DNA from: an uncultured Prevotella sp.
Lineage (GTDB): Bacteria; Bacteroidota; Bacteroidia; Bacteroidales; Bacteroidaceae
DNA: 38,528 nucleotides
NCBI GenBank assembly: GCA_946055365.1
Contig: CAMGFM010000001.1
Location: 1-38,528, forward strand
Direction: 5' to 3'
Shown: positions 4,109 to 35,959 of the stretch, in pieces
Position numbering within the stretch: position 1 is the stretch's first letter
Layout: each line of letters opens with the position of its first letter
Position numbers and translations under genes: made by a program
Notes under the pieces: model-generated
Seen by the model: only the letters and a program-made list of their open reading frames with translations
Database searches by the model: none
What the model was told of the DNA's origin: nothing

Positions 4109-4190
4109 AAAGAGCCACTTTTCAGTTGCAAAAGTGGCTCTTTTCACTTGCAAAAGCGGCACTTTAGGGTCAGTAAAGTGCCGCTTTTGC
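4109..4190. repeat. Palindrome array 1 (4 units, 22-bp period)
   Basis: AAAGAGCCACTTT@4109, AAAGTGGCTCTTT@4131, AAAGCGGCACTTT@4153, AAAGTGCCGCTTT@4175. Confidence 0.95.
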
Positions 4191-4346
4191 GCATAAAAGA
4201 CGCTCTCCCGCACACAGCGGGAGACTCCTTGTGCATGACTCTGCGCCAGAGACCAGCGTCTCGAGCGCGTCGCCATGACAGCGAAAGAGGCGGCACACGG
4301 GCAGAGCGTGGCTCTATGGCACCGCCATCGTTTCACGTGACACCTG

Positions 4347-6473
4347 TTATTGTGCCACGCCTATCTCCTTGAGCAGGCGGTCGGCATGACCCCACTTGTC
4401 CATGAGGTAGAGCATATAGCGTATGTCCACGCCGATGCAGCGCGCGAGACGGCGGTCAAACCAGATGTCGCTCGAGAGCGAGTCCCAGTTGCCGTCAAAG
4501 GCAAGGCCTATAAGCTGTCCCTTACCGTCAAACATGGGCGAGCCAGAGTTGCCTCCCGTGATGTCGTTGTTGGTAAGGAAGCACAGCTGCATCTTGCCTG
4601 TGGTGGCGTCGGTGTAGCGTCCGAAATCCTTAGCCGAGAACAACTCCTTCATGACAGGCTCTGCCTGATAGTCGATAGTGCCTCTCTCGCCCGACTGCAT
4701 CTTGCGCACGATGCTCGCAGCGTCGGTATAGTAGCCCGAGGGTGCTCCTGCGAGCGTGTAGCCGCCCACCTGACCATAGCTGAGCCTCATCGTGAAGTTG
4801 GCATCGCTATAATGGGGCAGCTCCTGTTCCATGCGTATCTTGGCATCGCACAGATAACGCTCCTGCAACTCTATCGCGCTGTCCACATCACGGAACACTG
4901 CGCGTGCGTTGTCGAGTATTTCCATTATCTGTCTGCCATATTCCACGCCCGGATCGTCCTGCACGTCCTTGGCATAGAGCTTGATTTTCTTGCCCGACTG
5001 CATCAGTACGGAGTTGTTGTAGAGCCACTCGACATACTTGCGTGGGTCGCCGCCAAACTCGCGCTTGATGGTAGCGTAGAAGGCGGGCAGGTCTTTCTCG
5101 TCGCAATAGCGTCTGTAGTTGTCGATGAGTGCCGCCATCACGTCCTTGTCAAGCGCAGCGTCCCACTCTGCGCTGTTGTCGGCAAAGACATAGTATTGCT
5201 TGCTCTTTGCCGCCTTGGGGTTCTTGGGCTCGAGGCCGCGCGCAAAGGCCAGGGCCCTGGCATTAAACTCGCAGGTGTTGCGGAATGTCTCGCTCCACAC
5301 GGTGAGTTGCTTGGTGGCATCAAACCTCTTGGCATAGAGACGCGCCATCTTGTCAAAGTTGAGCTTGTCCTTGAGATAGCCAGTCCACTTCTGATATTCC
5401 ATGATGCGCTCCTCAAAGTCGGCTTTCTGGCGTATGATGCCCACAGAGTCGATGCACTTGTTCATGCCGAGGGAGTTTTTCCAGTAGTTGGAGCTCTGTG
5501 CATACTTGGAGTCATACTTGATGCGCACAGCCTCCGACGCTCTCATGTGGCGGAGCATCACCTCCTGCTTCACGCCCCTTATCTGGGCACGCGGAGCGTT
5601 CTCTGCGTCGCGCATCTCGCGTATGCCATAAGACGACATGTAGCGGCTGGTGCTGCCCGGATAGCCTATGGTCATGGCAAAGTCGCCCTCCTTGTAGCCG
5701 TCGAGCGACACCTTGGCCCAGTGAGCAGGCTTGTAAGGCACATTGTTCTTGCTATAATCGGCAGGCCCGTTGGTCTTCGGGTCTGCATAGATGCGAAACA
5801 CGGAGTAGTCGCAGGTCTGTCGCGGCCACATCCAGTTGTCGGTCTCGCCACCAAACTTGCCCATTGACTTTGGCACGGTGAACACGAGGCGCAGGTCACG
5901 GAACTCTTTGTAGGTGGTGGCATAGAACTTGTTGCCCTCATAGAACGGCAGCACCTCCACGATGAGGTCTTTGTCCTTGGCTCTTGCCTCCTTTGCCAGC
6001 TCTGTCTCCACAGTTGCGAGCAGCGACTCCTGATCGCGTATGGTCAGGGAGCGTATTCCCCTCTTCTCAAGCATGTCTGTGATGTCTCTCTGCTCCACCA
6101 TGAAGCGCACGAACATGCCCTCATTGGGCAGCTCCTCGGCATAGCTCTTGGCATAAAAGCCGTTGAGCATGTAGTCATGCTCCACTGTAGAGTGGCTGCG
6201 GATGGCCTCAAAGCCACAGTGATGGTTGGTAAAGACGAGTCCATCGGGCGACACTACCACGCCAGAGCAGTATCCGGAGAAATTGACCACGGACTTCATG
6301 ATGGCGTTTTCGCTCTGATAGAGATCCTCATAGGGGGCTGAGAACCCGTAACTCTTCATTTGCTCATACACCGCCTGCGGCAGATCGTAGAGCGTCCACA
6401 TGCCTTCGTCGGCGTGGGATGCGGTGGCTGAGAATGTCAGCGCAGCCGCAAGAAACAGCTGTTTGATTTTCAT
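4347..6473 (-). CDS. S46-family dipeptidyl peptidase, DPP7-like
   Basis: Signal peptide then ADEGMW; TNHHC (catalytic His); GGETDNWMWPRQTCD; DITGGNSGSP (catalytic Ser); AFDGNW with Gly at the S1 position. Confidence 0.93.
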   Translation of the reverse strand: MKIKQLFLAAALTFSATASHADEGMWTLYDLPQAVYEQMKSYGFSAPYEDLYQSENAIMKSVVNFSGYCSGVVVSPDGLVFTNHHCGFEAIRSHSTVEHDYMLNGFYAKSYAEELPNEGMFVRFMVEQRDITDMLEKRGIRSLTIRDQESLLATVETELAKEARAKDKDLIVEVLPFYEGNKFYATTYKEFRDLRLVFTVPKSMGKFGGETDNWMWPRQTCDYSVFRIYADPKTNGPADYSKNNVPYKPAHWAKVSLDGYKEGDFAMTIGYPGSTSRYMSSYGIREMRDAENAPRAQIRGVKQEVMLRHMRASEAVRIKYDSKYAQSSNYWKNSLGMNKCIDSVGIIRQKADFEERIMEYQKWTGYLKDKLNFDKMARLYAKRFDATKQLTVWSETFRNTCEFNARALAFARGLEPKNPKAAKSKQYYVFADNSAEWDAALDKDVMAALIDNYRRYCDEKDLPAFYATIKREFGGDPRKYVEWLYNNSVLMQSGKKIKLYAKDVQDDPGVEYGRQIMEILDNARAVFRDVDSAIELQERYLCDAKIRMEQELPHYSDANFTMRLSYGQVGGYTLAGAPSGYYTDAASIVRKMQSGERGTIDYQAEPVMKELFSAKDFGRYTDATTGKMQLCFLTNNDITGGNSGSPMFDGKGQLIGLAFDGNWDSLSSDIWFDRRLARCIGVDIRYMLYLMDKWGHADRLLKEIGVAQ

Positions 6474-6663
6474 TGTTTAAAGTTTGAGGTTTATATTCTC
6501 ATTACACGTATTTTACGCTTTGCAGTATGCATTATTGACCGCAGGAGACTGCACCGCCAGCTCGCGGCACACATGTATCATCAGTGTCAACCCGCGTCCT
6601 GCGGCTCGCGGCACACCTTAATTATATATAGCGACCCACAGTCTGCGGCACGCCGCGCTCACT

Positions 6664-8163
6664 CTATCCCTTTGCCTTGCGCCTTATCCTGCTCAAGGAA
6701 GCCAGTGCGCCCGGCGGCAGCTCGCGCCTGACGACATAGGCGGCGAACACGCCCAACACGAGGGTGTTTGTCACGACGGCAGGGAGCAGCGCGAGGCGCG
6801 CGTTTGCCAACGCCATGACACAATAGAGCGCGGCGGTAAGGGCAGTGTAGGCAGCCATGCTTGCCAAGGGATAGTCTATGGCATATTTGCGCTGTCCCAC
6901 GACATAGGACAGTATCATCGCCGTGCCGTAGCCTGCCACTCCGCCCCACGCACATGCCATATAGCCATAGCGAGGCACGAACATCACGTTCACAGCCACC
7001 AGCACCAGACATCCCGCGCCCGAGAACCACGCCCCATAGATGGTCTTGTCAATGAGCTTATACCAGAATGACAGATTGAAATAGATGCCCATCATTATCT
7101 CCGCCGCCATCACTATCGGCACGACGCGCAGTCCCGTCCAGTAACTCGGGTCGGGAATGACATAGCGCAGCACATTGATGTAGGCAGTGACCGTGAGAAA
7201 AGCCAGAAGCGTGAACACGAGAAAATATTTCATGGCCTTGGCATAGGTGTCGCGGCTGTCTCTGTCCTTGCTCTTGCCAAAGACAAACGGCTCGTAGGCA
7301 TAGCGAAACGCCTGAGTGATCATGGCCATTATCATGGCTATCTTTGTGGCAGCCCCATATATGCCGAGCTGTGTCTTGCAGTCATCGCCGTCATAGAGAT
7401 AGGGAAAGAGAATTTTGTCAAGCGTCTGATTGAGTATGCCAGCAATGCCCAGCACGAGCAGCGGCCACGCATAGCGCAGCATCCTGCGCCACAATGCCGT
7501 GTCGAAGACATAGCGGAAGCCTGTCAACTCCTTGCGGAAGCACAGCAAAACCACCGCCGTACACACGAGATTGATGTAGAACACCATGCCCACGTCGAGC
7601 GTGAAGTTTTCGTCGTAGAGCCCCAGAGGATTGAGGCGCAACGCTGGCAACACCACAAGATACATGAGGTTGAGGAAGATGTTGAGCAGGATGTTGAGCA
7701 TCTGCAACGCGGCAAACTTGAGTGCCTTTTTCTGATAGCGCAGGTAGGCAAAGGGTATGCACTTGAAGGCATCTATCGCCACGCACACGAACATCACCGC
7801 CACCCAGTCCTCGTGCCCGTCATATTTCATTGCCGACGCGAGCCACGGCAGGCACGCAAACACGAGGGCCACGAACAGCAATGCCGTGGAGCCTACTGAC
7901 AACAGCACCGTGGAGTAGACCTTGCGGGGGTCTTCGTCGGTCTTATTGACATATCGAAAGAATGTTGTCTCCATGCCATAGGTGAGTATCACGAGCAGGA
8001 GTGCCGTGTAGGCATATATGTTGGTGACCACCCCATACTGTCCGCCGCCTGCCGCAAACGCGGAGGTCTGTATAGGCACGAGCAGATAGTTGATAAACCT
8101 GCCCGCAATGCTGCTTATGCCATAGATGGCAGTGTCCTTGGCGAGTGATTTGAGATTTGCCAT
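6664..8163 (-). CDS. Polysaccharide biosynthesis / oligosaccharide flippase (Wzx-like, MOP superfamily)
   Basis: Typical start MANLKSLAKDTAIYG; many hydrophobic segments; QAFRYAYEPF and LSFWYKLIDKT motifs. Start trimmed to 8163 because the longer ORF overlaps spmAB. Confidence 0.85.
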   Translation of the reverse strand: MANLKSLAKDTAIYGISSIAGRFINYLLVPIQTSAFAAGGGQYGVVTNIYAYTALLLVILTYGMETTFFRYVNKTDEDPRKVYSTVLLSVGSTALLFVALVFACLPWLASAMKYDGHEDWVAVMFVCVAIDAFKCIPFAYLRYQKKALKFAALQMLNILLNIFLNLMYLVVLPALRLNPLGLYDENFTLDVGMVFYINLVCTAVVLLCFRKELTGFRYVFDTALWRRMLRYAWPLLVLGIAGILNQTLDKILFPYLYDGDDCKTQLGIYGAATKIAMIMAMITQAFRYAYEPFVFGKSKDRDSRDTYAKAMKYFLVFTLLAFLTVTAYINVLRYVIPDPSYWTGLRVVPIVMAAEIMMGIYFNLSFWYKLIDKTIYGAWFSGAGCLVLVAVNVMFVPRYGYMACAWGGVAGYGTAMILSYVVGQRKYAIDYPLASMAAYTALTAALYCVMALANARLALLPAVVTNTLVLGVFAAYVVRRELPPGALASLSRIRRKAKG

Positions 8164-8276
8164 TGTGTGTCGTTTATTTCCTTTATATATATAATGTGTG
8201 TCACCGCTGACGATATGCGTTGTCAGCCCATGCGCGGCAGCGTTGCGCCATCGCCTTTCAAGCCCCTTGCCGCCGC

Positions 8277-9506
8277 TCAGAAGAACAGATAGCAGAGCGC
8301 GATGGCAGCCACTATGCCAGCAAAGTCGGCTATGAGACCGCAGGTGACGGCATGGCGCGTGTGTCTCACGCCCACACTGCCAAAATACACCGCTATGATA
8401 TAGAACGTGGTGTCGGTGGCTCCCTGAAACACGCACGACAGCCTGCCCACAAAGGAGTCTGCGCCATAGGCGGTCATGGCATCGACCATCATGCCGCGCG
8501 CCCCGCTGCCCGAGAGGGGCTTCATGACAGCAGTGGGCAAGGCTCCCACAAACTCGGCGTCGCAGCCTGTCATGCCCACCAGCGTCCTTATGCCGCCGAC
8601 GAGCATGTCCATGGCACCCGAGGCACGGAACACGCCTATGGCCACGAGCATCGCCACGAGGTAGGGTATGACCCTCACGGCAGTGTTGAAGCCGTCCTTG
8701 GCACCCTCGACAAAGGCATCATAGACATTGACCCTGCGCCTGAGACCCGCCACTATGAACGCCATGATGACAGACAGCAGCAAGACGTTGGCCACAGTGG
8801 AGCTGACGGTGTTCATGGTGTCCTTGGACATGAGCGAGAAGCCCCATATCACCGCCGACACCGCGCCGCACATCACGAGCAAAGCCAGCAACACCGAGCG
8901 GCGCAGTAGGTTGATGCGCTGATAGAGCGACGTGACCACTATGCCTGCAAGCGTAGAGAAGAACGTGGCAAGCAATATAGGCACAAACACATCGGTGGGC
9001 TGAGCCGCCCCAAGCTGCGCCCGATAGACCATAACCGACACGGGGATGAGCGTGAGGCCAGAGGTGTTAAGCACAAGAAACATTATCATGGCATCGGAGG
9101 CGGTGTCCTTGCGGCTGTTGAGCGACTGCAACTGCTCCATGGCCTTTAGCCCGAGCGGCGTGGCGGCATTGTCGAGCCCCAGCATGTTGGCTGCCACGTT
9201 CATGAAGATGCTGCCCGTGACGGGGTGGGCCTTGGGGATGGAGGGAAAGAGCCTCACAAACACGGGAGACAGCAGGCGCGCCACAGCGTCGACCACCCCA
9301 CTCTTCTCGCCTATCTTCATTATGCCAAGCCACAGCGACAGCACTCCCGTAAGCCCGAGCGAAATCTCGAAAGCTGTCTTTGCCGTGGCAAACGTGGAGT
9401 CCATGACCGCCGGAAACACCTCTGTGTCGCCCATAAACACGAGTCTCACGACGCTCAACACAAACGCCACGAGAAAGAACGACACCCATATATAGTTTAA
9501 TACCAT
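8277..9506 (-). CDS. SpmA/SpmB fusion membrane protein (nucleoside-recognition Gate domains)
   Basis: ANMLGLDNAATPLGLKAM (SpmA-like) and KPLSGSGARG / DTTFYIIAVYFGSVG (SpmB-like). Confidence 0.9.
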   Translation of the reverse strand: MVLNYIWVSFFLVAFVLSVVRLVFMGDTEVFPAVMDSTFATAKTAFEISLGLTGVLSLWLGIMKIGEKSGVVDAVARLLSPVFVRLFPSIPKAHPVTGSIFMNVAANMLGLDNAATPLGLKAMEQLQSLNSRKDTASDAMIMFLVLNTSGLTLIPVSVMVYRAQLGAAQPTDVFVPILLATFFSTLAGIVVTSLYQRINLLRRSVLLALLVMCGAVSAVIWGFSLMSKDTMNTVSSTVANVLLLSVIMAFIVAGLRRRVNVYDAFVEGAKDGFNTAVRVIPYLVAMLVAIGVFRASGAMDMLVGGIRTLVGMTGCDAEFVGALPTAVMKPLSGSGARGMMVDAMTAYGADSFVGRLSCVFQGATDTTFYIIAVYFGSVGVRHTRHAVTCGLIADFAGIVAAIALCYLFF

Positions 9507-9543
9507 AACAATGTTACTGCACTTGTTTTACTTTTCGCCATCA

Positions 9544-9643
9544 TAAGAGCCGCCCTGCATTTTCAAAAGTGGCTCTTTGCGCCTGCCAAAGTGCCACTCT
9601 GCGCCTGCAAAAGTGCCACTTTACGCAGCTGGAGAGGCTCTTT
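9544..9643. repeat. Palindrome array 2 (3 good and 2 degenerate units)
   Basis: Units at 9544 (degenerate), 9566 AAAGTGGCTCTTT, 9588 AAAGTGCCACTCT, 9610 AAAGTGCCACTTT, 9631 GGAGAGGCTCTTT; periods 22,22,22,21. Confidence 0.9.
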
Positions 9644-9846
9644 CGGGACGGCCTCATCAAGCCATTGCAGACGTAGACAGCCTCTCGCCCACGCAAAAGG
9701 CAAGAGCCGCGACACACGACCACGCTCCTGGCTCTCTGCCACAGACGCTGCCATAAGGCCCTGAAGCCGCGGCAACTCCACACGACGGCATCCACAGTCA
9801 CGCCGCCGTGGCAGGCATGACAAGGCACGATATACTTACCGCGCTG

Positions 9847-9895
9847 CAAAATTAGGCATTATTTTAGAATAAGTCAAATAAAAATGTTACTTTTG
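9847..9895. promoter_or_regulatory. Divergent Bacteroidota -7 promoter elements for spmAB (-) and coaD (+)
   Basis: TAATTTTG on - strand at 9847-9854 and TACTTTTG on + strand at 9888-9895; both match TAnnTTTG in an AT-rich patch. Confidence 0.65.
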
Positions 9896-9921
9896 CAAGC
9901 ATAACATACAGTTAGTGACAA

Positions 9922-10380
9922 ATGGAAAAAACAGGATTGTTCGCAGGCTCGTTTGACCCGTTCACCATAGGACACGCATCCATAGTGAGACGCGCCCTGC
10001 CGCTCTTTGACCGTCTCGTCATAGGCGTGGGGGTAAACGAACAGAAAAGATACTCGCAGACGGCGGCGCAACGCGTGGAGGCCATAAGGCGGCTCTACGC
10101 CGGCGACAGCCGCATAGAGGTGATGCAATATAGCTGTCTCACCGCCGACTTTGCGCACGACATAGGCGCGGCGTTCATCGTCAAGGGCGTGAGAAACGTG
10201 AGAGACTTTGAGGCGGAGCGCGACCAGGCCGACATCAACCGCCACCTCACGGGCGTGGAGACCCTGCTGCTGTGCGCGGAGCCGGGACTGGACAGCGTCA
10301 GCTCATCTGTGGTGCGCGAGCTGAGGAGCTTTGGCAAGGACACGGGCGAGTTTTTGCCTGCAAGGCAGGACAGCATGTGA
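9922..10380 (+). CDS. coaD: Pantetheine-phosphate adenylyltransferase
   Basis: FAGSFDPFTIGH, VKGVRNVRDFEAE, VSSSVVREL. Confidence 0.97.
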   Translation: MEKTGLFAGSFDPFTIGHASIVRRALPLFDRLVIGVGVNEQKRYSQTAAQRVEAIRRLYAGDSRIEVMQYSCLTADFAHDIGAAFIVKGVRNVRDFEAERDQADINRHLTGVETLLLCAEPGLDSVSSSVVRELRSFGKDTGEFLPARQDSM

Positions 10381-10631
10381 CACCGCGGGCCAAGACCATC
10401 CACACTACGGCACGACATAAACATCCATACACACATAATTATTAACTCTAAGGTGGCGACGTGATGATGGCGTACATCTCTTATTAACAAAGACATTGCG
10501 TGAATGTCCAAGAGAACACGCCACGCACACCACCGACAAGCATGCCTCCATCGCCACGGCACGGGCATCGGCACGGCACCGCGCCGCCAGTGTCATGGCG
10601 AGAGGGGCGTGACAAGAAAAAAATCACGACT

Positions 10632-11045
10632 ATGATAACATACAATGCGGAAGGCGTGAGAATGCCAAAGCTCAAGAAACGCGAGACAACGGCGTGGATA
10701 CGCGCCGTGGCAGGCTCTTATGGCTACAAGGTGGGCGAAGTGGGCTATATGTTTGTTGACGACGAGAAAATTCTCGAGGTCAACAACGAGTTTCTCGGAC
10801 ATGACTACTACACCGATGTCATCACTTTTGACTATGACGAGCCGGGCATAGTGAGCGGCGACATCGTCATCTCGCTCGACACGGTGAGGTCAAACGCCGA
10901 GAAGTTTGGCAAGGACTATGAGGAAGAGCTGCGGCGTGTCATCATACACGGCATACTGCATCTCTGCGGCATCAACGACAAGGGCCCTGGCGAGAGAGAG
11001 GTGATGGAAGAAGCCGAAAACAAGGCTCTCGCCATGCACCCCTGA
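10632..11045 (+). CDS. ybeY: rRNA maturation endoribonuclease YbeY
   Basis: HDYYTDVITFDY, GDIVISLD, HGILHLCGIND zinc motif. Start trimmed to MITYN at 10632. Confidence 0.95.
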   Translation: MITYNAEGVRMPKLKKRETTAWIRAVAGSYGYKVGEVGYMFVDDEKILEVNNEFLGHDYYTDVITFDYDEPGIVSGDIVISLDTVRSNAEKFGKDYEEELRRVIIHGILHLCGINDKGPGEREVMEEAENKALAMHP

Positions 11046-11048
11046 GCG

Positions 11049-12287
11049 TCACATAATGACAAGACGCGTGAGGCGCGAGTCGTCGAAGATGTCCTGAGCC
11101 ACGCCTTGCAGGTCTTGGGGAGTGAGCGCGTCTATCCTGTCATACATCGCGCCTATGTCCTTGAGCCATCCGTAGTGGAGAAAGCCCTTGGCAAAGTCAA
11201 GGGCAAAAGCCTCACGCGAGTCGCAGGCTATGCCTATCTGCCCCTTTATCTGCCTCTTGGCGGCAGTGAGCCTCGCCTCGGTGAGGGGCGATAGCATCAC
11301 CCTGTCGAGTTCCTTGCGCACGAGCCTCACACAGCGGTCTACATTGGCGGGGTCGCAACCGAAGTAGACGGCCCACAGGCCCGCGTCGGAGTAGCCCGTC
11401 ATGGAGCTTTCCACGGTATAGACCAATCCATTGCGCTCGCGCAACGACATGTTAAGGCGCGCGCTCATGCCCGGTCCGCCGAGGATATTGTTGAGCAGAT
11501 AGAGTGCTGTGCGCCTCTTGTCGCCTGCTGGATAGGCCCTGTTGCCCATCATGACGTGGGCGAGGTGGGTGTCCATGTGTCGCGTGACATTCTGAGGCAC
11601 ATATTCGCGCATGACACACGCCTCTCTCGCCGCCCCGCGGGGCAGTGCCGAGGTCTGGAGGTCGCCAGTGGCACGCTCCAAGAGTCTCAGGAGACGCGCG
11701 AAGTCCACGTCGCCGTAGGCAAAGAACACGGCGTTGTCGGGGCGGTAGTGCCTGCCCGTAAACGCAAGCGCGTCATGCGTGGTGAAAGTGCGCAGACGCT
11801 CCGCGCTGCCAAGTATGTTGCGGCCCAGAGGATGCCCGTGGAAGAGCATATCCTCAAAGATGTCGTATATGAGTTCGGCTGGCGAGTCGTTGTAGCTTTC
11901 TATTTCGTCGCATATAACCTCCACTTCCTTGTCTATCTCACGCTGCGGGCAGGTGCTGTGAAACACCATGTCGGTGAGAATGTCCACCGCACGGTCGACA
12001 TTAGCCCTAAGCACGGCGGCGTGATAGACAGTCTCCTCCTTGCCAGTGAACGCATTGAGGTCGCCGCCCACGCTTTCGAGACAGTTGATGATGTGCCACG
12101 GACGGCGGCGTGCGGTGCCCTTGAACATGACATGCTCGCAGAAATGGGCCATGCCCTCCTTGCCCTCGTCCTCGTCGCGTGTGCCTGCACCCACGGCATA
12201 TCCGCAATAAAGCACGGGCGACTCACAGTGCAGGTGAATGACGCGCAGGCCGTTGGCAAATGTATGTGTGTTGTAGTCTTTCGTCAT
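11049..12287 (-). CDS. M16 (pitrilysin/insulinase) family zinc peptidase
   Basis: Inverted zinc motif HFCEH in GMAHFCEHVMFKGT; LNAFT; LRERNGLVY. Confidence 0.93.
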   Translation of the reverse strand: MTKDYNTHTFANGLRVIHLHCESPVLYCGYAVGAGTRDEDEGKEGMAHFCEHVMFKGTARRRPWHIINCLESVGGDLNAFTGKEETVYHAAVLRANVDRAVDILTDMVFHSTCPQREIDKEVEVICDEIESYNDSPAELIYDIFEDMLFHGHPLGRNILGSAERLRTFTTHDALAFTGRHYRPDNAVFFAYGDVDFARLLRLLERATGDLQTSALPRGAAREACVMREYVPQNVTRHMDTHLAHVMMGNRAYPAGDKRRTALYLLNNILGGPGMSARLNMSLRERNGLVYTVESSMTGYSDAGLWAVYFGCDPANVDRCVRLVRKELDRVMLSPLTEARLTAAKRQIKGQIGIACDSREAFALDFAKGFLHYGWLKDIGAMYDRIDALTPQDLQGVAQDIFDDSRLTRLVIM

Positions 12288-12387
12288 ATTTTCTTCTTTT
12301 GTAGGGTAGTGTTTTTATTCCCATCGTCCATGTTGTCACTCACGGCGCAGGCCTTACGTCGGCTATGGCAGCGGCAACGCATCTTGG

Positions 12388-12466
12388 CAAGTGGCACTTT
12401 ACATGCCGTAAAGTGCCACTTGTGTGATGGCAAAGCGGCACTTTTGGGTGGCAAAAGTGGCGTTTT
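12388..12466. repeat. Palindrome array 3 (4 units, 22-bp period)
   Basis: CAAGTGGCACTTT@12388, AAAGTGCCACTTG@12410, AAAGCGGCACTTT@12432, AAAGTGGCGTTTT@12454. Confidence 0.95.
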
Positions 12467-12562
12467 CTGACGTGGGCATCGGCGTGTACGGGGTCTCGTG
12501 CATGGGCTGTGGCTGCGTGAACATCAAGACTACGGCCTCATCACAGAGGTCTGGCGACCTGA

Positions 12563-15916
<3,354 letters not shown>

Positions 15917-26167: not shown

Positions 26168-26229
26168 TTTTTTTATATTTGTGTCACTGTTCTTTTATAA
26201 AGGAAATGTGTATTGTGATGTCCTGCCTG

Positions 26230-26237
26230 CAAAATTA
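26230..26237 (-). promoter_or_regulatory. -7 promoter element for the THUMP-like methyltransferase
   Basis: TAATTTTG followed by CA on - strand, about 60 bp before the start. Confidence 0.55.
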
Positions 26238-26632: not shown

Positions 26633-26663
26633 TTTGTAGTTTCCTTAACTTAATATATCTTTG
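26633..26663 (+). promoter_or_regulatory. Full Bacteroidota sigma-A promoter for ptb-buk
   Basis: TTTG(26633)-N19-TATCTTTG(26656) matches the -33/-7 consensus. Confidence 0.75.
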
Positions 26664-26936
26664 CAGCAGTTTGCACAAACGAACAAAATTTGAGCAATAC
26701 GAAACATATCAAACCTAAAACATCCCTATGCAGGCAACGCCTGCCATGGTAAGCTCCCAGAAAGGGAGACATACAGAAAAAACATTAACAAAGAGCCGTC
26801 TCACACACGGGCTTACGGCCAGAGCCAGGCACTGACACGACAACGCCAAGGCCGCATACACACCGCACGACCTCTGGATTTGAGGGTGAGAAAGTGGCGC
26901 ATGAACAACGAACACCAAACAATTTTTCTATTAACA

Positions 26937-27863: not shown

Positions 27864-28082
27864 TGCAACCACACAATCCCGCAATGGCTCATACATTACC
27901 AGTAAAGACTCATACATTATATATATAATGGCTGCTGAAATCACTATTAATAAAGAAAAGACACAGTATTAGCTTACATGACGACCTTTTCCTGCGCGCC
28001 ACGCACACACGGCAGGGACTTGCCATGATGTGACGTGGCAGGAAAAGGCCACGAACATGACAAAAACTCACACTGAAAAATA

Positions 28083-29144
28083 ATGAAAAGGATTTTCGTT
28101 ATCAACCCGGGATGTACATCCACCAAGGTGGCTGTCTACGAGGACGACAAGGCTGTATGGACATCAGACGGTCTGCACTCTCAAGAGGAGATAGAGCGTT
28201 TTATGACCGTCAACGAACAGTACGAATACCGCAAGGACTTTGTGCTAAACCTGCTCAAGGAGGCTGGCATACCCCTCAAGTTTGATGCCGTAATAGGCAG
28301 AGGCGGACTGCTCAAGCCGCTGAAAGGAGGCGTGTATGCCATCAACGAGCAGATGAAAGAGGACTTGTGGAACGCAAGACACCAGCACGTGTGCAACCTC
28401 GGCTCGCTGATAGCCGACGAGATAGCGCGCCAGTGCCACTGTCCAGCGTTTATGGCAGACCCCGTAGTGGTGGACGAGATGATGACAAGGGCACGCTACA
28501 CTGGCCTGCCGTTCATCAAGCGCGAGTCAATATTCCATGCGCTCAACGCAAAGGCGGTGGCACGCATGCACGCTCACTCCGTGGGCAAGAACTATGAGGA
28601 CATGAACATCGTGGTGGCGCACCTCGGAGGCGGCATCTGCGTGTCTGCCCATCACAAAGGCAAGGTGATAGACGTGAACAACGCCCTCAACGGCGAAGGC
28701 CCGATAGCCCCTGAACGCTCTGGCACGCTGCCTGCCGACCAGCTGGTGAGACTCTGCTTCTCGGGCAAGTACACGCAGGCACAGATAATGAAGATGCTCG
28801 CAGGCTACGGTGGCTGTTACGCACTGCTCGGCATCAAGGACATGAAGGAGATAAGCACACGCGCCGAGCGTGGAGAGGAGCCTTACCACGAGGTGCTTGA
28901 GGCCATGCTCTACACAGTGTCAAAGCAGATAGGCGCAATGGCGGTGGCTCTCTGGGGCAAGGTGGACGCCATAATACTCACGGGCGGCATAGCCTACAGC
29001 AAATACTGCGTGGAGGACATAAAGTCGCAGGTTGGCTTCCTCGCACCCGTGATTGTGATGCCAGGAGAGGGCGAGATGAAGTCGCTTGCCTACAACGCTC
29101 TCGGCGCACTCAACGGCGAGCTGCCCATACAGGAGTATGTATAA
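28083..29144 (+). CDS. buk: Butyrate kinase / branched-chain carboxylate kinase
   Basis: INPGCTSTK, GRGGLLKP, DPVVVDE, FHALN, AHLGGG, GPIAPERSG, LTGGIAY, PGEGEM. Confidence 0.96.
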   Translation: MKRIFVINPGCTSTKVAVYEDDKAVWTSDGLHSQEEIERFMTVNEQYEYRKDFVLNLLKEAGIPLKFDAVIGRGGLLKPLKGGVYAINEQMKEDLWNARHQHVCNLGSLIADEIARQCHCPAFMADPVVVDEMMTRARYTGLPFIKRESIFHALNAKAVARMHAHSVGKNYEDMNIVVAHLGGGICVSAHHKGKVIDVNNALNGEGPIAPERSGTLPADQLVRLCFSGKYTQAQIMKMLAGYGGCYALLGIKDMKEISTRAERGEEPYHEVLEAMLYTVSKQIGAMAVALWGKVDAIILTGGIAYSKYCVEDIKSQVGFLAPVIVMPGEGEMKSLAYNALGALNGELPIQEYV

Positions 29145-29188
29145 TATATAAAAGGTGCATACAGTAAGCACAGACACACACATAAGGA

Positions 29189-29340
29189 CGGCCGGACGGT
29201 ACACTTCCCACAAACATAATCGTGGAATGTACCGTCCGGCCGCCTTTTCGTTTACAGTCCGCGGTCCTTTGGTTTACCGTCCGGCTGTCTTTTTGTTTAC
29301 CGTCTGCCGTCCTTTGGTTTTACTGTCTGCCGCCTTTCGT
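29189..29340. repeat. Second phased repeat: 5 tandem units of 22-23 bp plus one inverted copy
   Basis: TAC[C/A/T]GTC[C/T]G..GC-rich..CTTT..GTT units at 29230, 29253, 29275, 29298, 29321; CGGCCGGACGGTACA (29189-29203) is the reverse complement of 29228-29242. Confidence 0.9.
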
Positions 29341-29370
29341 GACAGAAGGGGGCTTTTTGGCACGGGGATG

Positions 29371-31581
29371 TCAGCGGCGCACACTCACTTCTATGTCCTT
29401 TACATAGGAACGTATGCTGCGGTCGGCGGCAACGACATCCACCACCATCCTATAGCGGCCCTCCTTGTCGGGCAGGCGACAGTCAAATGCCTGAAGTGGC
29501 GGCACCACTCCCATAGGCTGTATAGTCACTCCGTTTGACACGATAGAGCTGGCTTTGAACTGCGGCGCGAACTTTATCTCAAAGAAACCCTGTCCCGTGT
29601 CATACCACATGCAGCGCACGTCAAGCGGAGGTACAAGCTCTATACTCTCAATGCCAGTTGTCACCATGCCAAGTATGTCGCTGAGATCACGGTCAAACGC
29701 CATGCCATTCATGACTATGGCTATCTGACTCTTATTGTCACGATCACCAGGAATCCCAGGAGGCATCAAGCCTTGAAGTTTCTGACTCTTCCACATTATA
29801 TTATTGTCGTTGTCGGTGACAAGCACCTTGCCCGTGTAGAGTATGGCGTCCTTTACGGTGAAGATGCAGTGGTGATCATCTAAGAACTTACGGTCAAAAT
29901 AGCAGAAAGGGTCCCTAATCCTCGCCCAGTCGTATGACTGGGGGCGGCGTTTCCTCACCTGCACCTCCGCGAGGGTGTTTACCGTCTCCTCCATGGACGG
30001 GCTGTTAGGCACTATATCCTCGCCTCTCACCTCCCTCGCAAGCATCGGCAAGGCAGAGAAGCTCTGTATGGAGGGAAAATCAAGGTCGTCAAGGGTGTAG
30101 GAGTAGATGCTTGTCTTGCCTTTCTTGTTGTAGGCCTGCACATAGAGGCTTGTGCCGTCAAGAAAGTCGCCTGTCACGGCCTCAAAATGGCCCGTGCTGT
30201 CGGTATAGGCTATCGTGGCATCGTTGGTGAGCGTGTTGTATATCTGCACGCTGGCCCCGTCAAGTGGCTTACGACCATTTTTTACAGTGCCAGACACGCA
30301 CGGGGCTGCCTCAACGGGATAAGCGTAGGCTATGCTGTCGGCATTTAGCACCTCCCTGCCCACCATAGTCTGCGAGGCAGACAACAGCCACGTGTCTATG
30401 TCGCCGCGTGACTGTTCTGCGCCACTGTCCGTGACCGCGGAAAGCGGAAACGGCACGGGCGAGAACGCCTCGGAGCGATATTGCAACATCTCCATGGCAG
30501 TATGCACATTGCGGCTGCCCTCGGGCAGGAAGCGCACAAAGACACGCCCTGACGGCACGCTGTCATTGAGCGTCACGTGCAGAGCATCGCCCTGACAGCC
30601 CGTCGTGGATATGCTTATGCCGCCAGAGGAAGGGAGAGTGCCGCCGTCGCCAGTCCACAGCACACGCTGCGAAAGGACATTGCCGTCGCCGTCGACAAGC
30701 CACAGCGTGAGAAGGCCCGGGGTGCAGCCATCAACGTCTGCCATGCCAGCACCCTCGCGCATGGCAAGGGGCTTTATGCCGAAGCTGGAATGATACATAT
30801 AGACACGGCACGAGTCGGCACGGCCGCGCATGGACTCCCCGCAAAGCACACGGCACACCAGACGGCCGCGGTTTTGCGTGACACGGAGCGTGGGAGTGTC
30901 CATGGCTGCGGGCAGGACAAACTTGCGCATGCCTTCGCCGCCATTTACCACAAGCATACAGTCATCGCCGTCTGGCATGAACGACACTCTGGCGAGACCA
31001 GAGCCACTGGTCTTGCCGCTGCACACCACCTCGCCGTTGCTGCGCACAACGTCAAACTCAGCGGAGACGGGAGACAGCGTGGCGTTGCAGAGATACACGC
31101 CCATGGTCTGTAGCTCTCCCGACACAAAATGGCCGCCCTCGGGAAAGAACATGGCACTCACGCATGACGTGTCGCCGTCTGCCACGGGCCTGACACCCAC
31201 ATAGAGGGGTGTCATGGGATAGAAATCATTGCCGCGGTTGCGCATGAACTGGGTGTAGCCGCGCAGGTTGTAAACCCCTTGTGCCATCTCGCCGTCCAAA
31301 GGCATGGCCGCATAAAACGACCCGTCATTATTGCAGCGCACCTTGATGCGCCTGGCAAGAGCGTTATTGCGGTCGCTAAGCTCCACATACACATAGCGGC
31401 TGTAGGGATAGAAGTCGCCGTAGTCGGTGGATAGCACCTGCCCCATCAAACGCACGGTGTCGCTTGCATAAACCACATTATTGAGAGGAGCTACATACAC
31501 TCTCTCCGAAAGAAAATACTTGTCCTTGGCATGGGATGACAACGACAGCGCAAGGAAAAGGAATGTAATGAGTCGCTTCAT
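29371..31581 (-). CDS. Secreted hypothetical protein with MG2-like N-terminal domain, carboxypeptidase-regulatory-like domain and degenerate TonB-plug-like C-terminus
   Basis: Signal peptide; ERVYV...YVYVEL...YNLRGYTQFMRN; FFPEGG; VSGTVKN...TDSTGHF; LAEVQV; IESIELV. No beta-barrel or terminal Phe. Confidence 0.7.
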   Translation of the reverse strand: MKRLITFLFLALSLSSHAKDKYFLSERVYVAPLNNVVYASDTVRLMGQVLSTDYGDFYPYSRYVYVELSDRNNALARRIKVRCNNDGSFYAAMPLDGEMAQGVYNLRGYTQFMRNRGNDFYPMTPLYVGVRPVADGDTSCVSAMFFPEGGHFVSGELQTMGVYLCNATLSPVSAEFDVVRSNGEVVCSGKTSGSGLARVSFMPDGDDCMLVVNGGEGMRKFVLPAAMDTPTLRVTQNRGRLVCRVLCGESMRGRADSCRVYMYHSSFGIKPLAMREGAGMADVDGCTPGLLTLWLVDGDGNVLSQRVLWTGDGGTLPSSGGISISTTGCQGDALHVTLNDSVPSGRVFVRFLPEGSRNVHTAMEMLQYRSEAFSPVPFPLSAVTDSGAEQSRGDIDTWLLSASQTMVGREVLNADSIAYAYPVEAAPCVSGTVKNGRKPLDGASVQIYNTLTNDATIAYTDSTGHFEAVTGDFLDGTSLYVQAYNKKGKTSIYSYTLDDLDFPSIQSFSALPMLAREVRGEDIVPNSPSMEETVNTLAEVQVRKRRPQSYDWARIRDPFCYFDRKFLDDHHCIFTVKDAILYTGKVLVTDNDNNIMWKSQKLQGLMPPGIPGDRDNKSQIAIVMNGMAFDRDLSDILGMVTTGIESIELVPPLDVRCMWYDTGQGFFEIKFAPQFKASSIVSNGVTIQPMGVVPPLQAFDCRLPDKEGRYRMVVDVVAADRSIRSYVKDIEVSVRR

Positions 31582-31656
31582 CGGTTAAACTTTATTCTGA
31601 TAATGTATATATCGGCTACTGGCAGTAGCACAAATGTTTAATGGTTAATTACATTG

Positions 31657-31664
31657 CAAATATA
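31657..31664 (-). promoter_or_regulatory. -7 promoter element for the MG2-like gene
   Basis: TATATTTG followed by CA on - strand, about 75 bp before the start. Confidence 0.55.
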
Positions 31665-31775
31665 CACATTATGCAAGTACACGGTCTAATATGCCTGTTA
31701 AAAAACACAAACACCTCGCTTTTTTTGTCATAATGTACAACGACAGCCCAAGGAAACTTTCTCTCCAATAAAACC

Positions 31776-31942
31776 GAAAAGTCACTTTTGCCGTCGGAAA
31801 AAGCCTTGTTGCAAGAATAAAATGCCGCTACGCAAATATAAGATGCCACCTTGTAATGACAAAGTGCCGTTTTGAGCCTGTCAAAGTGCCTCTTCGCAAA
31901 CATCAAGTGGCACTTTAGCAGGCTCAAAACGGCACTTTGTCA
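31776..31942. repeat. Palindrome array 6: 4 good units forming a fold-back, preceded by 4 decayed in-phase units
   Basis: Good units at 31861, 31883, 31904, 31926; decayed units at about 31776, 31798, 31819, 31840; perfect 24-bp inverted arms at 31857-31880 and 31919-31942. Confidence 0.92.
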
Positions 31943-32076
31943 CACGAAAAGAGGATGTGCCAATGACGACACACCCTCCCTATCATTTTTTAGACTTCAT
32001 ATTTTTCGATATTCCACACCCCTGCCCCGTCGGCAGCAAGGACACCGCCGCCAGTGCAGAGGCCCAAAAGGCTTGC

Positions 32077-32829
32077 TTAGTCAGCGAGCTTTGCCTTGAT
32101 AAACTCGCGGTTGAGGCGAGCGATGTTGGCGATAGACTCGTTCTTGGGACACTCTGCCTCGCACGCACGTGTGTTGGTGCAGTTGCCAAAGCCCAGCTCC
32201 TCCATCTTTGCTATCATAGCCTTGGCACGCTTTGCGGCCTCGGGACGGCCCTGAGGCAGGAGTGCCAGCTGGCTAACCTTAGAGCTGACGAAGAGCATTG
32301 CAGAACCGTTCTTGCAGGCAGCCACGCAGCAACCGCAGCCGATGCATGTGGCACAGTCCATAGCCTCGTCGGCATCCTGCTTAGGTATGAGTATGGCATT
32401 GGCATCCTGAGCCTGGCCAGTGCGTATGGTGGTATATCCGCCAGCGGCAATAATCTTGTCAAAGGCAGAACGGTCTACCATACAGTCCTTGATGACGGGG
32501 AAGCCCGCACTGCGCCACGGCTCTACGGTGATGACATCGCCATCCTTGAAACGGCGCATGTAGAGCTGGCAGGTCGTGGCACCCGTTGCCGGGCCGTGGG
32601 GATGACCATTGATGTAGAGCGAGCACATGCCGCAGATGCCCTCGCGGCAGTCGTGGTCGAAGACAAACGGCTCCTTGCCCTCATTGATGAGCTGCTCGTT
32701 GAGCATGTCGAGCATTTCAAGGAAAGAAGTGTCATCAGGGATGTTCTTCATCTCACGTGTGTCGAAATGGCCCTTGCTCTGAGGTCCATCCTGTTTCCAA
32801 TATTTAAGTGTGAATGATATATTTGCCAT
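32077..32829 (-). CDS. frdB: Fumarate reductase/succinate dehydrogenase iron-sulfur subunit
   Basis: DCREGICGMC, CIGCGCCVAAC and CTNTRACEAECP cysteine motifs. Confidence 0.96.
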   Translation of the reverse strand: MANISFTLKYWKQDGPQSKGHFDTREMKNIPDDTSFLEMLDMLNEQLINEGKEPFVFDHDCREGICGMCSLYINGHPHGPATGATTCQLYMRRFKDGDVITVEPWRSAGFPVIKDCMVDRSAFDKIIAAGGYTTIRTGQAQDANAILIPKQDADEAMDCATCIGCGCCVAACKNGSAMLFVSSKVSQLALLPQGRPEAAKRAKAMIAKMEELGFGNCTNTRACEAECPKNESIANIARLNREFIKAKLAD

Positions 32830-32874
32830 TGTTACTTACTTTTAAAACGTTGATTATTGAATGAACTCAGAGTA

Positions 32875-34857
32875 TTAGTTCTTATAGTTACGTGTCTGTA
32901 CCTTGATGATCTCATACTCGAGCGGCTCCTTGTTGAGTGCGGGTGCCTTGTCGTCGCTGCCCTGATACTCCCATGCGCCTACATAGAAGAAGTTTGCGTC
33001 GTCGCGCTTGGCCTCTCCCTCCTCTGTCTGGTGCTCCTCACGGAAGTGACCGCCGCAAGACTCCTCGCGATGGAGGGCATCGTTGGCGATAAGCTCGCCC
33101 ATAAGGATGAAGTCACGCAGGTGTATGGCCTTGTCAAGCTCAATGTTGAGACCCTCCTTTGCGCCCGGCACGAAGAGGTTAGTGTCAAATTCCTTGCGTA
33201 TGTTCTTCAACAGCTTGAGACCTTCCTCAAGTCCTTTCTTGGTGCGGCCCATTCCCACATGCTCCCACATGATGTGGCCAAGCTCTTTGTGGATAGAGTC
33301 GACAGAACGCTTGCCCTTGATGTTGAGCAGACGCGTGAGCTCTGCGTCAACAGCCTTCTCGGCAGCCTCAAACTCGGGCATGTCGGTGGAGAGACGCGGC
33401 CAGATAGTCTGGTCGGCAAGGTAGTTCTGTATGGTGTAAGGCAGCACGAAATAGCCGTCGGCGAGACCCTGCATGAGCGCGGACGCACCGAGACGGTTGG
33501 CACCGTGGTCGGAGAAGTTGCACTCGCCTATTGCGAAGAGTCCAGGGATGGTTGTCTGCAACTCATAGTCTACCCAGATGCCGCCCATGGTGTAGTGGAT
33601 GGCGGGGAAGATCATCATCGGCTTGTAGTAGTCGAAGCCTCCCTCAGAGCGAACAAACTCTCCGGGGTTGACATCAGTGATTTCCTCATACATGTCGAAG
33701 AGGTTGCCATAGCGTGCGCGTATCTCTGCTATGCCGAGACGCTGTATTGACTCGGAGAAATCGAGGAACACGGCGAGACCGGTGTTGTTCACGCCGAAGC
33801 CCTTGTCGCAACGCTCCTTGGCTGCACGAGAGGCAACGTCACGGGGAACGAGGTTGCCAAATGCGGGATAGCGACGCTCGAGATAGTAGTCGCGGTCCTG
33901 CTCGGGTATGTCCCAACCCTGCTTTGTGCCGGCCTGCAGAGCCTTGGCATCTTCAATCTTTTTCGGCACCCAGATGCGGCCGTCGTTGCGGAGAGACTCC
34001 GACATGAGGGTGAGCTTTGACTGCTTGTCGCCGTGCACGGGGATACATGTCGGGTGTATCTGCACATAAGAGGGGTTGGCAAACATGGCTCCCTTGCGGT
34101 AGCACTGTATTGCAGCCGTACAGTTGCAGCCCATGGCGTTGGTAGAAAGGAAGTATGTGTTGCCATAACCGCCAGTAGCTATTACCACGGCGTTTGCAGA
34201 GAAACGCTCGAGCTTGCCTGTCACGAGGTTCTTGGCAATGATGCCGCGTGCGCGGCCGTCTACAAGCACCACATCCTCCATCTCATAGCGTGTGTAGAGC
34301 CTCACCTTGCCTGCATTGACCTGACACATGAGCGAAGAGTAGGCTCCGAGCAGGAGCTGCTGGCCAGTCTGTCCCTTTGCATAGAAAGTACGCGACACCT
34401 GCGCGCCACCAAAAGAACGGTTGGCGAGCATTCCGCCATACTCACGTGCGAAAGGCACGCCCTGAGCTACGCACTGGTCGATGATATTGTTTGACACCTC
34501 AGCCAGACGATAGACATTGGCCTCACGTGCGCGGTAGTCGCCGCCCTTCACGGTGTCATAGAAGAGACGGTAAACGGAGTCGCCGTCGTTCTGATAGTTC
34601 TTGGCAGCGTTGATACCGCCCTGTGCGGCGATGGAGTGTGCGCGACGCGGAGAGTCCTGTATGCAGAAGTTGTAAACGTTGAAGCCCATCTCGCCAAGTG
34701 AAGAGGCGGCAGACGCGCCTGCAAGGCCGGTACCTACGACAATAACGTCGAGCTTGAGCTTGTTCTTTGGGTTCACCAGACGCTGGTGAGCTTTATAGTT
34801 GGTCCACTTCTCAGCCACTGGGCCTTCGGGTATTCTTGAATTTAATGTCTTAGCCAT
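32875..34857 (-). CDS. frdA: Fumarate reductase/succinate dehydrogenase flavoprotein subunit
   Basis: [11 protein letters not shown]-binding motif, [10 protein letters not shown] covalent-FAD His, [30 protein letters not shown]. Confidence 0.97.
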
Positions 34858-35032
34858 AATTTTGTTTTAGACTTATGATTCTGTTATTATGTTTTATATA
34901 ACTTGAGCAGACGTGCCTTGGCTATCTGCATGTATGAATGTGCATGTCTTTATATGTGATGGCTCGCGCTTCTGTCAGCCGCCCATTGCCTTTACATATA
35001 TAAAGATAGCTCTTGCCGCCGCTCACCTACCT

Positions 35033-35725
35033 TTAACAGCAGCTGCCGCAGCACAGGCTGGGAGCGCAACCGAAAGCAAATGCGAGGACTACAACGAGGA
35101 AGCCGAGCATGAGAACCGTAGAATAGACGAGTCCGATGGTCTTCCAACGCTCAAACCATGTCTTGCCGTTCCATCCGAGTGTGTGCATGGCACTCCAGAA
35201 GCCGTGAGAGAGGTGGAACCACAGAGCCACGAGCCACACGATGTAAAGCACTACAAACACGGGGTTGGAGAATGTCTCCTTGATGTAGGCAAAGCCGTCT
35301 GCCGGGTGGAACTGTGTCTCAAAGCCAACGAGCTCTGCAAACATCATGTTGTACCAGAAGTTCCAGAAGTGCAGCACAAGACCGAGAAGCACGATAATGC
35401 CAAGCACAAGCATGTTCTGTGAAGCCCACTCCACCTTTTCAGGCTTTGCGGTAACCTCATAACGCTCCGTACCGCGTGCGGCACGGTTCTGCATAGTAAG
35501 CCAGAAGGCATAGACAATGTGCAGCAACGCCAAAGCGGCGAGACCCATTGTTGCAACTACAGCATACCAGTTGGCGCCGAGGAACTCACAAATCATGTTG
35601 TAGCCTTCTCCTGAGAAGAGCGCAACAATGTTCATTGACATGTGGAATGTCAGGAATAGAATAAGCGCGATGCCCGTGAGAGACATCACAACCTTTCTAC
35701 CGATGGATGAATTGATTAACCACAT
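35033..35725 (-). CDS. frdC: Fumarate reductase/succinate dehydrogenase cytochrome b subunit
   Basis: SSIGRKVVMSLTG, about five TM segments with heme-ligand His residues, HLSHGFWSA; first gene of the CAB operon. Confidence 0.95.
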   Translation of the reverse strand: MWLINSSIGRKVVMSLTGIALILFLTFHMSMNIVALFSGEGYNMICEFLGANWYAVVATMGLAALALLHIVYAFWLTMQNRAARGTERYEVTAKPEKVEWASQNMLVLGIIVLLGLVLHFWNFWYNMMFAELVGFETQFHPADGFAYIKETFSNPVFVVLYIVWLVALWFHLSHGFWSAMHTLGWNGKTWFERWKTIGLVYSTVLMLGFLVVVLAFAFGCAPSLCCGSCC

Positions 35726-35880
35726 AAATGATAGAAATTTTTAAAATTACTGAATGTTAGATAATGATTTTGATTTTTTGATTGTCACAGTCATAGCATC
35801 CCGTCTGGATTGCGGTCAAGCGGGGCGCACTTGGCCGCGGAGGGCATGTCACAAAGGGCATACGCCTTTTCAGGTTTTCT

Positions 35881-35959
35881 CAAGTGCCGCTTTAGGCATC
35901 AAAAAGTGCCACTTTTGGGCATCCAAAGAGCCTCTTTTCTAACGCTAAAGTGCCACTTT
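35881..35959. repeat. Palindrome array 7 (4 units, 22-bp period)
   Basis: CAAGTGCCGCTTT@35881, AAAGTGCCACTTT@35903, AAAGAGCCTCTTT@35925, AAAGTGCCACTTT@35947. Confidence 0.95.

What the first reader, a model, noticed from the sequence alone, without database searches (positions are those of the whole stretch)
4109..35959. Genome-dispersed family of helically phased palindrome arrays (AAAGTG[G/C]CACTTT every 21-22 bp)
Seen: seven separate intergenic arrays (about 4.1, 9.5, 12.4, 17.3, 24.7, 31.8 and 35.9 kb) with about 30 recognisable copies of a 13-bp 6-1-6 palindrome. The period is always 21-22 bp although the 8-9 bp spacers differ between arrays. Arrays lie between tandem, divergent and convergent genes of unrelated function, and I found none inside a CDS. 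Known: 21-22 bp is about two B-DNA turns. Inference: conserved spacing with free spacer sequence suggests a dimeric protein binding cooperatively along one DNA face, such as a nucleoid-organising or topoisomerase-recruiting factor. An alternative is a BIME/REP-like non-autonomous element. Density and context-independence argue against an ordinary operator. I know of no described element with this consensus, but cannot search. This is the best candidate for an undescribed system here.
Basis: partly seen in the sequence, partly recalled or inferred. Interest (0 to 1): 0.85.

Follow-up and report, generated by a model that had tools for sequence, protein, structure and literature searches.

The report
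Palindrome arrays on a genome-wide lattice
This gut bacterium carries hundreds of evenly spread four-unit palindrome arrays whose two-helix-turn rhythm continues faintly through the neighbouring genes, likely the footprint of an unidentified protein that coats the chromosome in register, somewhat as nucleosomes do.

Summary
G000 (likely Prevotella) has 342 arrays; 199 have exactly four units and only 32 have two or three. Four-unit span is held near 65 bp. Arrays sit one per intergenic region and are evenly spread: 5.7% of gaps under 2 kb against 36% expected. Spacers are free and hairpins are not favoured.
New here: the motif's A-before, T-after pattern recurs every 21.53 bp beyond the arrays, in third codon positions, in phase to about 2 kb (z 11 at 100-800 bp; controls clean). 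It replicates in G282 and G166 at 22.0 bp and was not found in 5 of 5 array-poor genomes.
Best reading (0.6): high-affinity sites of a dimeric chromatin protein that polymerises one dimer per two turns. The binder is not identified; HU-HIG has mixed support. That arrays set the phase is not shown.
The scan saw similar arrays on other DNA; constant-size 20-23-nt repeats are published. I found no report of the lattice.

The parts
4109..4187 (.). Array, 4 units (22,22,22), downstream of S46 peptidase; units 1-2 and 3-4 are exact inverted pairs and fold as twin hairpins
   Evidence: a 1-bp deletion at 4172 is listed in 4 of 4 runs
9566..9643 (.). Array, 4 units (22,22,21), between divergent genes
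12388..12466 (.). Array, 4 units, between divergent M16 peptidase and GH2 genes
17270..17347 (.). Array, 4 units, between convergent ruvB and S41 peptidase; 5 units in two of four strain contigs
24652..24793 (.). Array, 7 units with near-identical spacers (recent tandem expansion, inferred)
31819..31938 (.). Array, 6 units (first two weak), downstream of the Fe-S subunit of the succinate dehydrogenase-like genes
35881..35959 (.). Array, 4 units, upstream of mnmG/gidA
1..38528 (.). Faint 21.53-bp lattice in third codon positions, in phase with the arrays; a statistical signal, not a visible repeat (z 3.0, phase 16.9 from this window's 14 array ends; z 11, phase 17.0 genome-wide)

Best explanation
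The arrays are evenly spread rows of at least four palindromes that lie on a continuous 21.5-bp sequence lattice running through the whole chromosome, and they are likely the high-affinity docking sites of an abundant dimeric chromatin protein that would polymerise along DNA at one dimer per two helical turns. Shown: unit spacing, four-unit minimum, constrained span, even spread, free spacers, the lattice in intergenic and coding DNA, its match to the motif profile, its species-specific period, and whole-unit gain or loss between strains. Inferred: four or five dimers form the smallest stable seed; the filament extends outward in register; selection or protection-biased mutation leaves the motif's ghost in synonymous sites; a 10.8-11.0-bp half period means underwound or negatively supercoiled DNA; arrays are born by unit duplication and turn over between species. 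Guessed (about 0.35 overall): the binder belongs to the HU/IHF superfamily.
For: 199 of 342 arrays have four units, stable over five thresholds; 40 of 56 have five in G282 and 34 of 37 have four in G166. Span 65 bp in 130 of 199 against 88 expected; span variance 0.42, below all 5000 permutations. Gaps under 2 kb 5.7% against 36% (p<0.001); no gap under 3.9 kb among 56 arrays in G282. AA peaks at +9, 31, 52, 74, 96, 118, 140, 160, 181 and TT peaks at +19, 40, 62, 84, 106, 127, 149, 170, 192 in non-coding flanks. Third-position A-T signal z 11.0 at 100-800 bp, 3.1 at 1600-2000 bp, same phase on both sides, both gene orientations and both contig halves; z below 1.1 from start or stop codons; jitter maximum 2.3; synonymous shuffling cuts amplitude from 0.052 to 0.007-0.014. 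G282 and G166 lock at 21.8-22.0 bp, where G000 gives only z 2.1. Two-turn signal in 3 of 3 array-rich and 0 of 5 array-poor genomes. The best-conserved AA and TT steps are 9 bp apart, the spacing of HU/IHF intercalating prolines (recalled). In G282 an IHF-like motif (consensus recalled; two mismatches allowed) ends 13 bp from the array in 29 cases among 31 arrays. 22-bp arrays lie upstream of 18 of 30 and 13 of 30 HU-HIG genes against 1 of 30 downstream each.
Against: No protein or binding is shown. Lattice coherence decays alike whether or not an array lies between two windows, and there is no phase slip midway between arrays, so arrays are on the lattice but are not shown to set it; unanchored periodicity is about as strong far from arrays as near them. 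HU-HIG copy number does not rise with array count (hand-counted medians 3, 11.5 and 3 in 20 array-rich, 20 low and 20 zero genomes; none at E 1e-8 in array-rich G160 and G236). The closest homologues of G000's HU-HIG gene (up to 65% identity) are in genomes with few or no matches to this motif and many carry another upstream motif. The HU-HIG loci are partly orthologous, and 10-28% of ordinary genes with long upstream gaps also score. 0 of 86 array neighbours in other genomes are HU-HIG. No HU or IHF-like residue cleanly separates array-rich from array-poor genomes. G000 has no IHF-like motif at a fixed distance. Even spacing is not significant in G166 (p 0.07). G047 has a strong 11-bp signal without the two-turn asymmetry. 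Selection and biased mutation were not told apart.
Confidence: 0.6

Rival explanations
1. DNA-shape code without a dedicated dimer: phased A and T tracts favour plectoneme tips or gyrase wrapping, and arrays are the strongest form of the known 11-bp periodicity where no protein code constrains the DNA.
For: Half periods of 10.76-11.0 bp fall in the plectoneme range described in PMC4132750. The lattice is continuous and not shown to start at arrays. Array cores differ wholly between lineages while the period stays. Even spacing suits topological domains.
Against: Bending needs no A-then-T alternation every second turn, no 99% conserved G and C in the core, no four- or five-unit quantum with sharp edges (fifth slot median score -22), and gives no reason for 21.5 against 22.0 bp in one genus.
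Confidence: 0.17
2. A selfish repeat (REP/BIME-, MITE- or minisatellite-like) spread by an enzyme or by slippage, with even spacing from target exclusion.
For: Patchy copy number: 0 to 486 generic matches across 400 genomes, 38 with 50 or more by hand count. Spacers within an array are more alike than between arrays (0.39-0.42 against 0.33). A whole 22-bp unit is added in 2 of 4 strain contigs. Only 9 of 34 orthologous gene ends in five relatives carry an array. In G282 the element has fixed polar flanks.
Against: 1047 distinct spacers among 1176, no shared flank k-mer in G000, no RAYT match (57% complete), no transposase among 86 neighbours. It does not explain a lattice in old housekeeping genes out to 2 kb, including first and second codon positions. 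It may still be how arrays spread.
Confidence: 0.1
3. Operators of a global transcription regulator acting on nearby promoters.
For: Outward -7-like boxes (consensus recalled) avoid the first 95 bp beside arrays (3 of 107) and are helically phased to them (R 0.33).
Against: Arrays are commonest between convergent genes (28 of 32 gaps over 400 bp, against 24 of 44 divergent). Control TTTGC motifs are phased about as strongly (R 0.18-0.51, small n). Neighbouring genes share no function.
Confidence: 0.07
4. RNA-level elements: hairpins acting as bidirectional terminators or stabilisers.
For: 3 of 5 window arrays fold far better than shuffles (z -6.2 to -8.8); median 103 bp from the upstream stop in tandem gaps.
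Against: In 199 four-unit arrays neither units nor spacers are more complementary than controls from other arrays; neighbours more often share orientation (638 against 369). 2 of 5 fold no better than chance. No Rfam match. Local co-option remains possible.
Confidence: 0.05

Closest known systems
Constant-size, variable-sequence 20-23-nt bacterial tandem repeats (Subirana and Messeguer; PMC8161180, passages and section 3.3 read; the 2020 J Bacteriol paper was not held)
   Same: Two-turn unit, non-coding, species-specific families, a short conserved motif, and their proposal of a protein polymerising on DNA to stabilise the nucleoid.
   Different: Here units are palindromes with saturated spacers, arrays have a four- or five-unit quantum, are evenly spread and lie on a lattice through coding DNA. 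The passages read cover Bacillus; 'Bacteroid' does not occur in PMC8161180 or PMC6749651.
Genome-wide ~11-bp periodicity (Atzinger and Lawrence, PMC7537859, parts 1 and 5 of 8 read; Lehmann et al., PMC4132750, passages)
   Same: Signal in third codon positions, species-specific period, kilobase coherence, and an unknown binding partner proposed.
   Different: Here the true period is two turns with A/T dyad asymmetry and is tied to discrete arrays with the same profile; '21 bp' and '22 bp' do not occur in PMC7537859, nor '22 bp' in PMC4132750.
REP/BIME of enterobacteria, including IHF-binding RIP/RIB (recalled)
   Same: Hundreds of intergenic palindromic clusters; an IHF-like motif flanks the G282 arrays.
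   Different: No hairpin covariation, no RAYT found, strict helical period, free linkers.
BrickBuilt minisatellite-MITE of Porphyromonas gingivalis (PMC4596501, passages)
   Same: Intergenic Bacteroidales repeat with a unit near two turns (23 nt) and variable unit number.
   Different: 19 copies with leader, tail and terminal inverted repeats; unrelated arrangement; none of these flanks seen in G000.
Phage phi29 p6 and archaeal hypernucleosome filaments (recalled)
   Same: Working analogy: a dimer repeating every two to three turns from bendable or phased signals.
   Different: No homologue was sought or found; periods recalled as 24 and 30 bp; analogy only.

Membership tests
Constant-size 20-23-nt bacterial tandem repeats | Constant unit length of 20-23 nt with variable sequence | tested here: met
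   1157 of 1176 spacings are 21 or 22; 1047 distinct spacers
Constant-size 20-23-nt bacterial tandem repeats | Non-coding, species-specific families with a short conserved motif | tested here: met
   321 of 324 outside predicted CDS; cores differ between genomes
Constant-size 20-23-nt bacterial tandem repeats | This family listed in the 2020 survey of 1241 genomes | not testable with these tools
   Paper and supplements not held
REP/BIME | Stem-loop units kept by complementarity | tested here: not met
   Reverse-complement identity no higher than control for any unit or spacer pair
REP/BIME | RAYT (Y1_Tnp) gene in the genome | tested here: inconclusive
   No PF01797 match in G000, 57% complete; other genomes not searched
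MITE (BrickBuilt type) | Shared leader/tail or terminal inverted repeats | tested here: not met
   No conserved flank in G000; G282 does have fixed polar flanks
MITE (BrickBuilt type) | Target-site duplication at filled against empty sites | not tested
   Empty orthologous gaps exist but no alignment for duplications was made
Plasmid-type iterons | Non-palindromic direct repeats beside a rep gene at one origin | tested here: not met
   Palindromic units at 342 loci beside unrelated genes; features recalled
HU-HIG binding sites | Gene presence or copy number tracks the arrays | tested here: not met
HU-HIG binding sites | 22-bp arrays enriched upstream of the gene | tested here: inconclusive
   18 of 30 and 13 of 30 against 10-28% background; loci not independent
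HU-HIG binding sites | Direct, phase-dependent binding | not testable with these tools
   Needs EMSA or ChIP
Known structured RNA | Rfam match at gathering score | tested here: not met
   0 matches in the window

The most novel reading that the evidence does not exclude
Some Prevotella lineages have true phased chromatin: a protein filament with a 21.5-22-bp repeat coats the chromosome in register, seeded every few kilobases by four- or five-unit arrays, and writes a second code into synonymous and even amino-acid choices. This would name the long-sought binding partner behind bacterial 11-bp periodicity in at least one group.
Probability: 0.4. Interest if true: 0.92.

Novelty: new variant of a known kind. 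Interest (0 to 1): 0.8.

Why it matters
The cause of the ~11-bp periodicity of bacterial genomes has been open for decades, and recent work argues for an unknown binding partner (PMC7537859). Here the periodicity is tied to a discrete, short, high-copy DNA element that can serve as bait, has a testable quantum (three against four units) and a species-specific period (21.5 against 22.0 bp). If a filament is confirmed, a dominant gut genus has positioned chromatin that shapes codon choice, indel fixation and perhaps uptake of foreign genes (genes in the lowest GC3 decile show a weaker signal).

Tried and rejected
Chance: rejected. Hairpin selection: rejected genome-wide. RAYT: no match, incomplete genome. 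Shared flanks or IHF-like site in G000: none. Matches outside Bacteroidales among the 108 loci of the partial all-genome scan (5 of 64 parts) were, by eye, mostly two-unit terminator-like hairpins; a few were short direct repeats. No close relative among 80 metagenome loci (best 66% identity). Register between neighbouring arrays: not significant when the period is scanned, weak at the independently fitted period (p 0.01-0.14 for 21.49-21.57, n 113). Arrays as phase-setters: not shown. Promoter phasing as a specific effect: controls similar. Binder search: G000 paralogue and codon-bias screen gave only HU, IHF-like and three Lrp/AsnC-like proteins, named by eye; HU and IHF-like alignments uninformative; HU-HIG has no PDB sequence match. 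Lrp/AsnC, CI-like, OxyR, AraC, KorB and ArgR were considered from recalled geometries only and not tested. The first read-laying listed only the best-supported 40 differences, none inside arrays, so palindrome against spacer substitution rates could not be counted. The jitter control crashed; equivalent controls ran. A wide filled/empty comparison with the nearest relatives was not done; only seven gene ends were compared. Literature searches with no description of this family; subscription papers and the supplements of the Subirana papers were not seen and may list Prevotella repeats.
Full report
Observation. The window is contig C1 of G000, a 1.69-Mb, 57% complete assembly. Flanking genes are unrelated housekeeping and catabolic genes. 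Sites within one mismatch of the consensus number 693 against 8-9 simulated. There is no Rfam match.

Anatomy. A weight-matrix scan gives 463 loci: 121 single sites and 342 arrays holding 1518 units. Of the arrays 199 have four units, 67 five, 25 six, 19 seven or more, and only 32 two or three. The four-unit mode holds at five thresholds, and the slot for a fifth unit scores near background (median -22 against -32 for random non-coding DNA). Spacings compensate: 130 of 199 four-unit arrays span 65 bp against 88 expected, and the span variance is below all 5000 permutations. Spacers are almost all different (1047 of 1176), slightly alike within an array (0.39-0.42 against 0.33), and no more complementary than controls; the same holds for units. 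So the constraint is on double-stranded geometry, with tandem duplication as the likely origin. Three of five window arrays can still fold strongly as RNA, as palindromic units allow.

Placement. 244 of 245 array-bearing intergenic regions hold one array; arrays occur in convergent (28 of 32 gaps over 400 bp), tandem (85 of 112) and divergent (24 of 44) contexts (my own gene calls). Against length-matched shuffles the arrays are over-dispersed: 5.7% of gaps under 2 kb against 36%, coefficient of variation 0.39 against 0.71, one contig over 6 kb without an array against 9.6 expected; none of 1000 shuffles was as regular.

The lattice. Beyond the last unit, AA and TT keep alternating with a 21.6-bp step for at least 190 bp of non-coding DNA. 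The signal continues into long genes. At third codon positions the A-minus-T signal at 21.53 bp has z 11.0 at 100-800 bp from 518 array ends and falls to 3.1 at 1600-2000 bp. It has the same phase left and right, in both gene orientations and in odd and even contigs. It is absent when start or stop codons are the anchor, stays at or below 2.3 in 30 jitters, and drops by about four fifths after synonymous shuffling; first and second positions carry a weaker copy (z 4.9, 3.7). The folded profile is the motif's own: A about five bases before the unit centre, T five after, G then C between. Against a simple nucleation story: unanchored periodicity is as strong 2-4 kb from arrays as beside them, coherence between coding windows decays over about 1.5 kb with or without an array between, and there is no slip at midpoints. 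The arrays therefore lie on a chromosome-wide lattice; that they set it is inference.

Other genomes. The exact motif pair occurs in 49 of 400 genomes of the genus, five with 20 or more matches. A generic three-unit pattern occurs in 245 of 400, up to 486 times; its reversed control also scores in many genomes, up to 303 in G216, which has another 22-bp family. Across 250 genomes of the order the maximum is 28. In 800 kb of G282, 40 of 56 arrays have five units, all 209 spacings are 22, the smallest gap is 3916 bp, and the lattice locks at 21.95-21.99 bp to 2.2 kb. In 400 kb of G166, 34 of 37 have four units, all 108 spacings are 22, the lattice locks at 21.8-22.0 bp, but even spacing is not significant (p 0.07). 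The two-turn signal is present in these three genomes and not found in 120-200 kb each of five array-poor ones; G047 has the 11-bp signal alone. Those five carry sparser 22-bp arrays with unrelated cores.

Turnover. Strain contigs bridge the 17270 array in 4 of 4 runs; two carry one extra whole unit with a new spacer. At seven orthologous gene ends in five relatives, 9 of 34 carry an array, each with the host's own core; where both flanking genes were conserved and checked (gidA in G331 and G352, M16 in G331) the gap was empty. Arrays are gained and lost, and cores drift, while the period stays.

The binder. Earlier scan notes proposed HU-HIG proteins. For: de novo 22-bp arrays lie upstream of 18 of 30 and 13 of 30 such genes against 1 of 30 downstream, G000's one detected gene has an array upstream, and G282 arrays carry an IHF-like flank at a fixed 13 bp. 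Against: copy number does not track arrays, two array-rich genomes have none at E 1e-8, homologues of G000's gene do not track its motif, background for long gaps is 10-28%, and none of 86 scanned neighbours (of 89 extracted) is HU-HIG. PMC5499826 (passages) proposes a conflict role for HU-HIG and no binding sites. Classical HU and the IHF-like protein show no diagnostic residue. The 9-bp distance between the best-conserved AA and TT steps fits HU/IHF geometry as I recall it. The binder stays open.

Mechanism. I commit to a polymerising dimeric chromatin protein (0.6): arrays are its strongest sites, four or five dimers its smallest stable seed, and the lattice its evolutionary footprint on underwound DNA. 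Rivals are a pure DNA-shape or gyrase code (0.17), a selfish repeat (0.10), operators (0.07) and RNA hairpins (0.05).

Prior knowledge. Constant-size 20-23-nt repeats with variable sequence, and the idea of a protein polymerising on them, are published for Bacillus and others (PMC8161180). Genome-wide 11-bp periodicity with an unknown partner is published (PMC7537859; PMC4132750; PMC3940949, abstract). BrickBuilt differs. Ten library searches found no description of this family, its quantum, its even spread or a two-turn lattice; the 2020 survey that might list Prevotella repeats was not available. The scan itself noted similar arrays in four other genomes; two further word look-ups found no note on the lattice. 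Verdict: real; a new variant of a known descriptive class, with a new genome-wide property that makes an old question testable. Interest 0.8.

Noticed in passing
window 29230-29337: A second 22-23-bp tandem array with an unrelated, non-palindromic unit (about five copies) between convergent genes; few relatives in G000 (11 loose matches).
   Followed up: partly
G000 intergenic DNA, genome-wide: An AT-rich motif ACCTTATTATATA occurs 66 times within one mismatch and is depleted beside arrays.
   Followed up: no
L221-L240 (G282), array flanks: Arrays are polar: one flank has a ~30-bp dyad holding IHF-like half sites, the other a TGTAAAATAAATT-like motif, both at fixed distances.
   Followed up: partly
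L313, L314, L322-L326, L330, L334, upstream of HU-HIG genes: A shared 22-bp array with an AAGTATSATACTT-like unit travels with this HU-HIG clade across species; only 2 loose matches in G000.
   Followed up: partly
L218:1498-2220 (G000:C268): HU-HIG gene followed by a short hydrophobic ORF, with a host-type array about 150 bp upstream.
   Followed up: partly
L220:372-662 with L381-L383: The IHF-like protein of G000, G352, G331 and G084 has a changed arm region compared with most of the genus sample; it does not track array count.
   Followed up: partly
L298-L303 (G155): Intergenic arrays with an 8-bp step (ACAAG-like units; lags 16, 24, 32, 40), a different periodic family.
   Followed up: no
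G000, -7-like boxes beside arrays: Outward TAnnTTTGC boxes almost never lie within 95 bp of the last unit (3 of 107), unlike control motifs (28 of 89).
   Followed up: partly
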